Part shown: one piece after another, positions 15,204 through 18,200 of the stretch
How the letters are laid out: each line of letters starts with the position of its first letter
Numbering within the stretch: position 1 is the stretch's first letter
Program-made: the position numbers
Source: a virus
UHGV virus genome: UHGV-0153540
Strand: one strand, 5' to 3'
DNA length: 18,580 nucleotides

Positions 15204-18200
15204 TGACACGAAATAAACGTCCGACAAGCACAGCAGCCAATACCTAAAAACAATATTTTGCCGAATATTCAGTTCGTTATAAAGGTTAAGCATTGAGTAT
15301 ACCAACTGTCTCTCTATGGAATGAGATGGGGTTAATCCCCCCAATAGACGAGGCTGATCCTACAAGCCATACTCGTTCCCCATACAAAATGGATATAGTA
15401 CGCTTTGTTAGTACTTTTTCGCTTAGCCCTGCAAGGATTAAAATCCTTAAGGGTTTTCTTAACTTTCGTGTTTCACTCACTCAAGCAGGGCTAGTTGAAG
15501 GTTTTCAGTGGGTAGATGGAAGCTTCACAGAACATATTGAACTTATTGAAAAAAGGCCACCGAATGATGTCGATGTTGTGACCTTTTTTCAATTCAGTAA
15601 TGGCGATAATGATGCAATCGTAATCGGTAGAAAGCCAGAGCTATTTGATCATGATTTTGTTAAGAAGGAGTTTTTCGTAGATTCCTACTTCCAAGAACTT
15701 AATCTACCAAGTCATGAGCTTGTTGAAATGACTGTATATTGGTACAGTATGTGGGCACATAGACGCGATCTGTCGTGGAAGGGATTTATCCAAATCCCGT
15801 TAAACCCACAACTTGATGTTGTGGCAATGACTATACTTAATTCGGCTACTACTGAGGGGGTCAAACAATGAATCGTAATGATTATGTTTTCGCTCTCAGT
15901 GAGCGCGAGCAAATAAGTAATCTATTAAAAAATATGCCAACAAGTCATTCTATTAGCCGAAAAAGCTTAGAAGACCGTCTGGAGAAAGTTGAGCGATTAA
16001 TTTCACAAGCTGACGTTCGAGAACATGAACCTACGCATGCTGTGTTAACTTTTAGAGGCCCAACAGTAGTTGGCACGCATGGCATTTCAGCAGTATTTGG
16101 AACAAAAGCTATATCTTGTTTTAATGATGCAATAGCTTACTTGGCAACCTCTTTCAATGGCCCACTTCCTGCATCAGGCAAGATACCAAACATAGAAAAT
16201 AATCATCTCATGATTACCGCGTCAGCCCGTGGTTCTTTCGGATTCGTACTTGAAGAGTTTAGACCTGATGCTCCTCTTGAATTCGATGAAGAAACCCCAG
16301 TAGCAAAAGCTATTAATAAGGCCAGAAAAATATTTCAGGCAAGCTTGGATAATGATGATGAAGAATTGTCTGATGCTATAGAAAACTTAGACTCTCGGGC
16401 CTTAGATAAAATCAGAGCATTCATTCATTATCTGCATGAAAATAAAACAGTTTTTACACTTAAAAGCCAAGGTTTTAGCATCGTTTTTAGAGAGCCAAAA
16501 CAGCTTGAAGCTGTATATCAACATCTCAGCAATGATAACATTCAGCAGGAAAAAATTATTGAGAACGTTATATTTTTGGGAACTCTTCCTAACAAGCGCC
16601 AATGTGAATTTATAGTTTTAGGTAACACTGATATCAGAACCGCTAGCATTGACAAAGCTGTAGATGACCCAGATATTATAAACAAGCACTTAGGAAGCGT
16701 TGCAACAGCCACGTTCCTGAAAAAAACTGTTGGTAAGGGCAAGCCCAGATACACTCTGGTTTCTCGACCTCAATGGGATATTAAATCAATCGATTAGAAT
16801 GAGCCCCTTCAGCCCGGCCTCCGCGCCGGGTTTTCTTTTACCATCAGCCCGTCAAAAACACACCTAACGAATTGTATTTATTGAATAAATATAAATCACA
16901 CTTATCACATTGCGCAATTCAGCTCCTACACATCCAGACTAGCTCTGCAAAACTTTAAAAAAATAAATCAATAGTAAAAACATGCACATAACCATTTGCG
17001 GTAATATTTTATCTCTAGCGGTGTTGACGAAAATACCTCCGGCGGTGATACTAAACACATCAGCAGGACGCTGGAAGCTAAATGGAACAGACTGGCAGGC
17101 TCTTTAAACAACGTCGACTCTCGACTACGTGGCTGAAAAGCCAGATCACCCAACCACATAAGCTGTGGGATGCAATGCCGAAGCAACCGTCTCAGGAGGA
17201 GCTTCGAGATTGCATCACCAAAGTTTATTCGGGAGGAATCTATGTCCAGAAAAACAGAATTTAAAGGCACCTCAGCTTCTCGTCGTAGAGCTCGTCGCGC
17301 AAACCTGCAAAGTCAGGAGGCGATTAGCTCCGACAAGCTACACAGACCAACCCCCTCTCGAGTGGTCTTGCAATGCAAGCGCAAACCAGCAATGAGAGCA
17401 GAAGTAATAACACTGACAACGTTGACCAGAAAATATGAAGGCTCAACTTGTCTTCCAAATGTAGCTCTTTACGCGGCAGGCTACCGGAAATCCAAACAAC
17501 TGACAGCAAGATGACTTGTGTTGGTCGCCAGAAAATGAGATTAGGCAGCAAACCACTTATTTGAGAGGAATTAATATGTCATCAATCCGCTTAACTACGA
17601 GAATGAAAGAGAAAATCGCTCGTAACGCTTTAATTAAATCTGGGGTTTTCACTGAGCTTGAAGAAGTAACAAAGTTAAAGAACCAGCTTGCACTTGACGC
17701 CAGAGTTGTTGCGTTTGGCGGTAAAAAGAAAACTGAGGAAGTGGATCAGTTATCATCCAAGTTAATGGCTATAAGCGAAGAACTTGAAAAGCTGGGATGT
17801 TCATTTTACTCATGCGATGCCCGTTCAACTTCAATTTATCTGACTGTATCTGGCAGAAGGGTTAGCTGGTATTCATATGGGAAAGACGGCAACGGCAAAG
17901 ATATATTGCTCCCTACTCCGACCAAAGATAAATGCATGTTTGACGCAGAGCACGAAATAACAAAAAGGTTTGATGAAATCTGCGCATTGCAACAAAAACT
18001 TGAAGCCAAGAAAAAGGATATCGAATCAAATGTATGGGCTGCTTTGAACTCAGTCACAACAGTTAAGCGACTTATTGAAGTTTGGCCTGAAAGCAAAGAG
18101 TTGCTACCAAAAGAAGCAGATAAAGCAAGTACAGCACTTCCTGCTTTACGGGTAGAAGATTTGAATAAGATGATTGGACTTCCTTCCGAGGTCGCATAAT

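What the first reader, a model, noticed from the sequence alone, without database searches (positions are those of the whole stretch)
17576..18199. Unknown 207-aa gene in the PL operon between N and cIII (the ral/sieB slot)
In lambda the interval between N and cIII carries accessory genes with host-interaction roles (ral anti-restriction, sieB exclusion). Here a single well-initiated 207-aa ORF fills that slot. It has no motif I can recognise and looks like a charged helical protein. It is flanked downstream by structured RNA elements and a truncated cIII, which suggests a recombination junction.
Basis: inference. Interest (0 to 1): 0.5.

Follow-up and report, generated by a model that had tools for sequence, protein, structure and literature searches.

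The report
Nmad5-family early gene replacing ral
The 207-residue gene is real and sits exactly where phage lambda carries ral, but it is not unrecognisable: it is a full-length member of Nmad5, a widespread phage protein family that is already catalogued, whose biochemical function is still unknown.

Summary
A well-initiated 207-aa ORF (17576-18199, +) lies between N (17242-17514) and a truncated cIII (18421-18507) in the PL operon of a lambdoid prophage.

"No recognisable motif" is wrong. The protein matches Pfam PF18757 (Nmad5) end to end at E=4e-71 and PHROG 1965. RefSeq already annotates 95-99% identical copies in 211 of 5426 complete E. coli genomes, and the gene is in mEp235, HK542, HK244, Kapi1 and Stx phages.

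The DNA just after its stop codon is ~99% identical to the DNA just after lambda ral. The cassette therefore occupies the ral position exactly, and ea10 is absent. cIII is cut by an IS629/IS1203 end at 18505, not by recombination.

A confident AF2 model (pLDDT 91) is a helical bundle with a small beta-hairpin. No solved structure or enzyme fold matches it.

The family's signature is a C-terminal motif, TxK[KR]Lxx-WPE...P...LP...DLNxxIGLP. The published Tmn-escape mutation in Dhillonvirus Nmad5 (K216E) aligns to R165 inside this motif.

Distant members sit in early replication/recombination modules of virulent and temperate phages.

Best reading, by inference: a dispensable, early-expressed, non-enzymatic binding protein acting in phage-host conflict. 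Function unproven; novelty low.

The parts
17576..18199 (+). Nmad5-family CDS (207 aa), the gene in question
   Evidence: Pfam PF18757 residues 4-203 against profile 1-206/206, E=3.8e-71. PHROG 1965, E=1.4e-81. dN/dS ~0.33. AF2 pLDDT 91.2.
17563..17569 (+). Shine-Dalgarno-like GAGAGGA, 6 nt before the ATG
   Evidence: Read directly from the sequence.
18059..18187 (+). Codons 162-204: the family signature T162-x-K-R165-L-x-x-x-W170-P-E172...E175-L-x-P178...L188-P189...L196-N197...G201-L-P203. It includes R165, the position equivalent to the Tmn-escape K216E of Dhillonvirus Nmad5.
   Evidence: Conservation across 142 and 60 diverse members. Alignment to the SM_A8 and SM_S22 proteins. PMC11846954.
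17024..17052 (+). PL-like promoter (TTGACG-17-GATACT) inside the OL operator region
   Evidence: Consensus scan. Position downstream of the repressor-side genes and upstream of N.
17242..17514 (+). Antiterminator N (90 aa). No terminator-like site lies between it and the Nmad5 gene.
   Evidence: Pfam N_peptide, E=1e-31. Terminator scan.
18203..18352 (+). Conserved lambdoid boundary sequence identical to the lambda ral-ea10 intergenic region. It holds a long hairpin (about 18242-18273) and a terminator-like hairpin (18334-18351).
   Evidence: Alignment to Lambda h434 imm21. The 'boundary sequence 4' feature of EF120460 lies under a match to window 18201-18259. Fold z=-5.2. Terminator scan.
18372..18391 (+). 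Second terminator-like hairpin, in the cIII leader (the lambda ea10-cIII intergenic sequence)
18408..18466 (+). cIII mRNA thermoregulator (Rfam RF01804)
   Evidence: 88.5 bits against a gathering score of 50, E=9e-22.
18421..18507 (+). cIII truncated to 28 codons
   Evidence: Pfam Lambda_CIII, profile positions 1-27/42. The 99.6% identical CE10 prophage has an intact 46-aa cIII followed by kil.
18505..18580 (.). Terminal inverted repeat and first bases of an IS3-family IS629/IS1203 element that interrupts cIII. The window ends inside it.
   Evidence: Thousands of copies occur in E. coli chromosomes and plasmids.

Best explanation
IDENTITY (shown). The ORF encodes a stand-alone, full-length Nmad5-family protein (Pfam PF18757, PHROG 1965). 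It is carried as a mosaic accessory cassette at the position lambda uses for ral, directly after N in the PL operon of a lambdoid prophage.

MECHANISM (inferred).
- It is transcribed with N from PL at the very start of lytic growth. No intrinsic terminator separates it from N, and the first terminator-like hairpins come after it.
- It is not an enzyme. It is a soluble helical bundle with a small beta-hairpin.
- Its most conserved feature is a C-terminal helical subdomain plus a tail motif (TxK[KR]L..WPE..EL.P...LP.....DLN..IGLP). I propose this is a docking surface for a conserved partner: a host protein, a phage early protein, or DNA.
- I propose it acts by binding in the early phage-host conflict around phage DNA replication, as a host-takeover or counter-defence effector. 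It would be dispensable in permissive hosts and visible to host immunity (Tmn).
- The 'nucleotide modification' name reflects gene neighbourhood in some virulent phages. It does not reflect a demonstrated activity, and nothing at this locus supports modification.
For: Identity:
- Family matches and naming.
- Exact ral position and mosaic boundaries.

Early co-transcription with N:
- The N-to-Nmad5 gap is 61 nt, with no terminator-like or promoter-like site.
- In Klebsiella, Serratia and Providencia prophages it is also the first called gene after the repressor in the leftward operon.

Not an enzyme:
- Two AF2 models (pLDDT 84.5 and 91.2) give a helix bundle plus hairpin.
- Foldseek against the PDB gives nothing better than E=0.35.
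- BFVD returns almost only other Nmad5-type or unnamed phage proteins.
- Family-wide conserved residues are mainly G, P, L and W, with a few charged or polar positions (R5, R43, T162, E172, E175, N197). No catalytic-looking cluster is present.

Conflict or accessory character:
- Present in only 211 of 5426 E. coli genomes.
- GC 40.5% against 46.6% for the window.
- dN/dS ~0.33.
- Split by an IS in a Stx2a phage.
- A Dhillonvirus nmad5 deletion mutant still plates (PMC11846954).
- Cloning of that gene failed because of apparent toxicity.
- The Tmn-escape substitution K216E/K296E falls on the residue aligned to R165 in the signature motif.

Not a prophage-expressed exclusion gene: the family is common in strictly virulent phages, including N4-like, M6-like and Dhillonvirus.
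Against: - No experiment addresses the lambdoid protein.
- No partner is identified.
- Rho-dependent termination after N cannot be excluded by these tools.
- In distant members the recurring neighbours are replication and recombination genes. These include AAA_24, DUF669/SSB, a PD-(D/E)XK nuclease, primase, helicase and DNA polymerase. That fits a phage-internal DNA-metabolism role at least as well as a host-directed one.
- The Tmn data are ambiguous. Deleting nmad5 does not give escape, so Nmad5 is not simply the trigger.
- The family's pI ranges from 5 to 9.8, so neither DNA mimicry nor generic DNA binding is indicated.
Confidence: 0.4

Rival explanations
1. Phage-internal accessory factor of replication or recombination. 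Nmad5 would be a non-enzymatic adaptor that works with the phage's own recombination/replication proteins (Sak4-type AAA_24 ATPase, SSB, exonuclease, primase/helicase), not against the host.
For: Neighbourhoods of distant members:
- Nmad5-DUF7173-AAA_24-DUF669-helicase (L094).
- Primase-polymerase next to Nmad5 (L096).
- VRR_NUC close upstream of Nmad5, one gene between (L098).
- DEAD helicase-Nmad5-ParB (L100).
- Nmad5...DUF2800-Enc34 ssDNA-binding protein-PolA (L006).
- N4-like phage B2: ThyX-Nmad5-PD-(D/E)XK-primase-AAA-SSB.

The CE10 twin of this prophage carries an AAA_24 ATPase further down the same operon. The strong conservation of the motif across about 2300 clusters suggests a conserved core partner.
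Against: - The gene is dispensable. It is IS-split in a Stx2a phage, and the Dhillonvirus deletion is viable.
- In lambdoid phages it occurs with unrelated recombination systems: Erf/Rad52-type in mEp235, RecT in Kapi1, AAA_24 in CE10. There is no fixed phage partner.
- In Dhillonvirus it sits alone on the opposite strand among head genes.
- It occupies a slot known for conflict genes (ral).
Confidence: 0.27
2. Genuine nucleotide/DNA modification factor, as the family name implies. It would be a subunit, specificity factor or scaffold of a base-modification pathway.
For: - In M6-like phages the gene lies between the 5-hmdU DNA kinase and the thymidylate-synthase-like hydroxymethylase of the thymidine hypermodification cluster.
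- In N4-like phage B2 it follows ThyX.
- The family was named for such contexts (Iyer et al. 2013, cited; the paper itself could not be read).
Against: - No modification enzyme is near the gene in this window or in any lambdoid locus examined.
- No enzyme-like fold and no catalytic residue pattern.
- From general knowledge, lambdoid phage DNA is not known to carry hypermodified bases.
- The 'NMAD' domain in a validated defence system turned out to be Nmad2, not Nmad5.
Confidence: 0.1
3. Prophage-expressed superinfection exclusion or defence gene, analogous to sieB or rex, protecting the lysogen.
For: - The N-cIII slot of lambdoid phages can hold exclusion genes. One record annotates a 'superinfection exclusion protein' there (H160).
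- The neighbouring rex slot in this window holds a candidate defence pair.
Against: - No promoter-like site lies upstream; the gene sits inside the repressed PL operon.
- No PADLOC hit.
- No membrane segment (max 19-residue Kyte-Doolittle mean 0.6), whereas SieB is a membrane protein (general knowledge).
- The family is abundant in strictly virulent phages.
Confidence: 0.04

Closest known systems
Nmad5 family (Pfam PF18757 / InterPro IPR040835 / PHROG 1965), e.g. mEp235_037, HK244 orf01, Kapi1_018, E. coli CE10 WP_000095087.1
   Same: Same protein: 92-99% identical, full-length profile match, same position after N.
   Different: Nothing of substance. This copy differs only in its flanks: the DUF6932 pair upstream of PL, no ea10, and an IS in cIII.
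Dhillonvirus Nmad5 (phages SM_A8 and SM_S22), the locus of Tmn-escape mutations
   Same: Same PHROG (E=3e-62) and the same signature motif. The escape residue K216/K296 aligns to window R165.
   Different: Only ~23-29% identical. It is 254 aa, with an insertion of about 40 residues in the beta region. It lies on the opposite strand between scaffold and spanin genes of a virulent siphovirus. Whether the lambdoid protein interacts with Tmn is untested.
Lambda Ral (restriction alleviation)
   Same: Same genomic position to the nucleotide at the right-hand junction, and the same PL early operon.
   Different: 66 aa against 207 aa. No sequence relationship (hhalign probability 0.07%). An anti-restriction activity is untested.
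Nmad5 genes of M6-like (Yuavirus) and N4-like phages
   Same: Same family by tblastn and structure.
   Different: Those copies are embedded in thymidine-hypermodification or nucleotide-metabolism and replication clusters. The lambdoid copy has no such neighbours.
T4/T2 RIIB, an early replisome/membrane protein that directly activates Tmn
   Same: Both are early phage proteins linked genetically to Tmn (PMC13001434; PMC11846954).
   Different: No homology (hhalign probability 0.35%). RIIB is a demonstrated direct trigger, whereas nmad5 deletion does not give escape.

Membership tests
Nmad5 (PF18757) | Profile HMM match above the Pfam gathering score over the whole domain | tested here: met
   239.9 bits against a cut-off of 27; residues 4-203 on profile 1-206/206.
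Nmad5 (PF18757) | Family signature residues: R5, R43, G48-G49, G93, T162, L166, W170-P-E172, L176, P178, L196-N197, G201, P203 | tested here: met
   All are present in the window protein. Conservation was computed on 142 and 60 diverse members.
Nmad5 (PF18757) | Same predicted fold as other family members | tested here: met
   BFVD Foldseek hits to named Nmad5 phage proteins, E down to 5e-13, TM up to 0.76.
Nmad5 (PF18757) | Genomic association with nucleotide/DNA-modification genes (the basis of the name) | tested here: not met
   No such genes flank it in the window or in the related lambdoid loci. The association is seen only in M6-like and N4-like phages. This is a contextual feature, not a sequence-membership criterion.
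Nmad5 (PF18757) | Nucleotide-modifying biochemical activity | not testable with these tools
   The papers found here report no activity for any member.
Lambda Ral | Sequence or profile similarity to Ral | tested here: not met
   hhalign probability 0.07%. No Ral family among the Pfam hits at E<=1.
Lambda Ral | Position between N and the ral-ea10 boundary sequence in the PL operon | tested here: met
Lambda Ral | Alleviation of type I restriction | not testable with these tools
   Needs an EOP assay on EcoKI/EcoBI hosts.
SieB / Rex-type prophage exclusion | Expression in the lysogen, membrane association, and a match to known defence models | tested here: not met
   No promoter-like site upstream. 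No hydrophobic segment. No PADLOC hit. The family is present in virulent phages.
Siphovirus Gp157 (PF05565), a helical protein of recombination modules | Profile similarity | tested here: not met
   hhalign probability 0.2% against Kapi1 Gp157.

The most novel reading that the evidence does not exclude
Nmad5 proteins would be a widespread, structurally novel class of early phage effectors. Their conserved C-terminal docking motif would engage a host factor or an immune sensor. In lambdoid phages they would be the functional replacement for Ral, a counter-defence gene. The residue R165 (K216 in Dhillonvirus) would mark the interface that the Tmn system reads or that neutralises it.
Probability: 0.2. 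Interest if true: 0.6.

Novelty: already known. Interest (0 to 1): 0.3.

Why it matters
For the scan, this finding is largely explained. The 'unknown' gene is a catalogued family member already annotated in hundreds of genomes. The odd features around it are an IS insertion plus standard lambda intergenic sequence.

What stays open is the function of Nmad5 itself:
- The family has about 2300 sequence clusters.
- It has a confident predicted fold with no solved-structure relative.
- No activity has been demonstrated, and the name is probably misleading.
- One genetic link to bacterial immunity exists (Tmn escape).

The lambdoid copies give a convenient genetic system to test it. They sit in the ral slot, are dispensable, and occur in culturable phages such as mEp235, HK542 and Kapi1.

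Tried and rejected
- Solved-structure sequence search: nothing below E=0.3.
- Homology to Siphovirus Gp157, which occupies a similar slot in recombination modules: rejected.
- Homology to T4 RIIB, the known Tmn trigger: rejected.
- Homology to Ral: rejected.
- The 'NMAD' domain in a validated DefensePredictor system: it is Nmad2, so irrelevant.
- PADLOC and NCBIfam: no hit for the protein.
- DNA-mimic or generic DNA-binding idea: the family pI spreads from 5.0 to 9.8, so neither is supported.
- Antisense ORF 17836-18237 (133 aa): no PHROG match. It is open in close copies only and is not kept in divergent homologs, so I treat it as a shadow ORF.
- Genome-contig scan: failed with the diverse alignment, and gave only 4 loci with the closer one.
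- The Iyer et al. 2013 paper that defined Nmad domains is not held and could not be read.
- Literature search by PF18757, IPR040835 and PHROG id: no papers.
- Papers mentioning HK542 or mEp235: none addresses this gene.
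Full report
**1. What is there**

The window is part of a lambdoid (P22-like mosaic) prophage.

On the minus strand runs the rightward operon:
- replication initiator
- Toprim/DnaB-type primase-helicase
- two HNH-AP2 endonuclease-like genes
- NinG
- phosphatase
- lysozyme
- KilA-N
- small and large terminase

On the plus strand, in order:
- an HTH plus S24 repressor, 14493-15206
- a DUF6932 protein and a 309-aa protein in the position lambda uses for rexAB, 15293-16797
- a strong terminator, 16811-16832
- a PL-like promoter, 17024-17052
- N, 17242-17514
- the ORF in question, 17576-18199
- 28 codons of cIII, 18421-18507

The ORF has a good ribosome-binding site (GAGAGGA, 6 nt before the ATG). 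All homologs share its N-terminus, so the ATG at 17576 is the start.

**2. It is a real, conserved gene of a known family**

- Pfam PF18757 (Nmad5) matches end to end at E=3.8e-71. PHROG 1965 matches at E=1.4e-81.
- NCBI names the homologs 'Nmad5 family putative nucleotide modification protein'.
- Copies 95-99% identical at the DNA level are in phages Kapi1, mEp235, HK542, HK244, PhiR12_x and many Stx1a/Stx2a phages. They are also in 211 of 5426 complete E. coli genomes, where every listed record is annotated as Nmad5.
- The closest match to this stretch is a prophage of E. coli CE10, 99.6% identical over 16800-18507.
- Among 80 IMG/VR loci plus the window, 79 of 81 copies are intact at 207 aa.
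- Pairwise dN/dS is about 0.33. This is purifying selection, somewhat relaxed, as is common for accessory genes.
- A profile search of 1.84 billion cluster representatives finds 2304 members at E<=1e-3. Of the best 150 listed, nearly all are ~200 aa single-domain proteins.

**3. The slot**

- From 3-4 nt after the stop codon (18203) to 18352, the window is ~99% identical to the sequence that begins just after the ral stop codon in a lambda hybrid.
- Lambda then has ea10, which this phage lacks.
- Identity resumes in the cIII leader.
- A GenBank feature called 'boundary sequence 4' (EF120460) lies under a match to window 18201-18259.

Across the 80 related loci:
- Homology to the window most often breaks at 17510-17559, just after the N stop.
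- On the right it breaks at 18220-18249 or 18350-18369.
- The cassette is found behind the window-type and mEp235-type N alleles, with or without Nun, and with two repressor types, with or without the DUF6932 pair. A Stx2a phage adds a third, P22-type N allele.

It is a self-contained mosaic module. Its GC content is lower than its surroundings: 40.5% against 46.6%.

**4. The flanking oddities**

The structured RNA downstream is real: z=-5.2 for 18196-18425. It is ordinary lambda sequence:
- the ral-ea10 intergenic hairpin and terminator-like hairpin
- a second terminator-like hairpin in the cIII leader
- the known cIII thermoregulator (Rfam RF01804, 88.5 bits)

The cIII truncation is not a recombination scar. 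At 18505 the sequence switches to the terminal repeat of an IS3-family IS629/IS1203 element. Its first three bases, TGA, form the stop codon. The CE10 twin has an intact 46-aa cIII followed by kil.

An IS of the same family also splits the Nmad5 gene itself at about codon 35 in Stx2a phage Stx2_EH1965. About 48 Stx2a records lack the first ~33 codons in the main match, and those listed have a second match place, so they probably share the same event. The gene is therefore dispensable for carriage of the prophage.

**5. The protein**

Two AlphaFold2 models agree (pLDDT 84.5 with 28 sequences; 91.2 and pTM 0.81 with 60 diverse sequences). The layout is:
- three long helices (8-22, 24-47, 50-72)
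- a beta-hairpin (86-100) with short extra strands
- a long helix (127-158)
- a small helical C-terminal subdomain (163-176)
- a low-confidence linker (about 185-189)
- a last helix (193-200)

Structure comparisons:
- Foldseek against the PDB finds nothing, best E=0.35.
- BFVD returns almost only other Nmad5-type or unnamed phage proteins.

The protein has no hydrophobic segment. Its pI is 8.6, but the family spans pI 5.0-9.8.

Family-wide conserved positions are R5, L6, I14, A18, G23, R43, G48, G49 and G93. Above all, the C-terminal signature is conserved: T162, L166, W170-P171-E172, E175-L176, P178, L188-P189, L196-N197, G201-L202-P203.

This is not the pattern of a catalytic site. It looks like a folded docking module followed by a conserved peptide tail. 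That reading is my inference.

**6. Context in relatives**

Moderately distant homologs (44-58% identity) are in Klebsiella, Serratia and Providencia prophages. There too it is the first called gene after the repressor in the leftward operon.

Members at about 30% identity sit in early replication/recombination modules:

| Locus or phage | Neighbourhood |
|---|---|
| L094 | Nmad5-DUF7173-AAA_24-DUF669-helicase |
| L096 | primase-polymerase next to Nmad5 |
| L098 | VRR_NUC close upstream, one gene between |
| L100 | DEAD helicase-Nmad5-ParB |
| L006 (Providencia) | Nmad5...DUF2800-Enc34 ssDNA-binding protein-PolA |
| N4-like Shigella phage B2 | ThyX-Nmad5-PD-(D/E)XK-primase-AAA-SSB |
| M6-like Pseudomonas phages | 5-hmdU DNA kinase-Nmad5-TS-like-HD...DNA polymerase |
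| Dhillonvirus | alone on the opposite strand between head scaffold and spanin genes |

The family is thus common in strictly virulent phages. This argues against a lysogen-protecting role. The 'nucleotide modification' association holds only for a subset of members.

**7. Experimental literature**

Only one study bears on function.
- In Dhillonvirus, escape from the Tmn defence maps to a single substitution in nmad5: K216E in SM_A8 and K296E in SM_S22.
- Reverting it restores sensitivity. Deleting nmad5 does not give escape. The wild-type gene could not be cloned, apparently because it is toxic (PMC11846954).
- I fetched both phage genes. SM_A8's protein is 254 aa with K216 in T-D-K-K216-L-I-K-A-W-P-E.
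- SM_S22's annotated 334-aa protein is the same plus an 80-residue N-terminal extension, so K296 is the same residue.
- Both align to R165 of the window protein, inside the family signature.
- A separate preprint shows Tmn is directly activated by T2 RIIB, an early replisome/membrane protein (PMC13001434). RIIB and Nmad5 are not homologous.

**8. Most likely mechanism**

Shown:
- family identity
- exact ral position
- mosaic cassette
- no terminator-like site between N and the gene
- no known fold or enzyme signature
- dispensability for prophage carriage

Inferred:
- The gene is co-transcribed with N as one of the first products of PL.
- It acts by binding rather than catalysis, through the conserved C-terminal module.
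- Its role is in the early contest between phage DNA replication and the host (takeover or counter-defence).

Confidence in this mechanism is about 0.4.

Rivals:
- A phage-internal replication/recombination accessory role is the main rival (about 0.27). It is supported by the neighbourhoods in section 6. It is weakened by dispensability and by the lack of a constant phage partner.
- A real modification role (about 0.1) has no support at this locus.
- A sieB-like exclusion role is unlikely (about 0.04).

**9. Verdict**

The gene is already known as a catalogued family member, so novelty is low. Residual interest lies in the unknown function and new predicted fold of a very widespread phage family, and in its link to Tmn. 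Interest 0.3.

Noticed in passing
window 15293-16797 (+): Two overlapping genes, a DUF6932 protein (192 aa) and a 309-aa protein of PHROG 18731, sit between the repressor and PL. Lambda carries rexA/rexB there. The first matches the PADLOC candidate-defence model PDC-M63A (E=2e-10). Both are low in GC (0.39-0.40). This is probably a prophage-expressed candidate defence pair.
   Followed up: partly
window 18505-18580; locus L109 1189-2500: An IS3-family IS629/IS1203 element interrupts cIII here after codon 28. An IS of the same family splits the Nmad5 gene at about codon 35 in Stx2a phage Stx2_EH1965, and about 48 Stx2a records show a similar N-terminal gap in the match. The PL early region seems to be a recurrent IS629 target in E. 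coli prophages.
   Followed up: partly
window about 18352-18362, against L108 2360-2760: ea10 (the lambda ssb-like gene, 369 bp) is cleanly absent. The terminator hairpin of the ral-ea10 spacer is joined directly to the cIII leader.
   Followed up: yes
window 17836-18237 (-): A 133-aa antisense ORF overlaps the 3' two-thirds of the Nmad5 gene. It is open in 79 of 80 close copies, has no PHROG match, and is not preserved in divergent homologs. It is most likely a shadow ORF.
   Followed up: partly
locus L111 1506-2510 (phage SM_S22, PP627283): The deposited Nmad5 CDS (334 aa) carries an 80-residue N-terminal extension that overlaps the head scaffolding gene on the other strand. Relatives lack this extension, so the start is probably mis-annotated. 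This explains why the same escape mutation is numbered K296E in SM_S22 and K216E in SM_A8.
   Followed up: yes
loci L094 6627-7052, L098 6373-6783, and the P0075 locus 6621-7067: In several distant relatives the Nmad5 gene is followed, with overlapping stop and start, by a ~140-aa gene. In L094 that gene matches DUF7173 / PHROG 2480; the other two were not tested. The lambdoid copies lack it. It may be a partner protein.
   Followed up: partly
window 6385-6897 (-) and 10109-10720 (-): Two paralogous HNH plus AP2-domain ORFs (homing-endonuclease-like) are inserted in the rightward operon of the prophage.
   Followed up: no
window 17082-17264 (+): A 60-aa ORF spans the putative nutL region (boxA-like GGCTCTTTAA at about 17098, boxB-like hairpin at 17130-17143) and overlaps the start of N. 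RefSeq annotates it as a hypothetical protein in CE10. It is probably not a gene.
   Followed up: no
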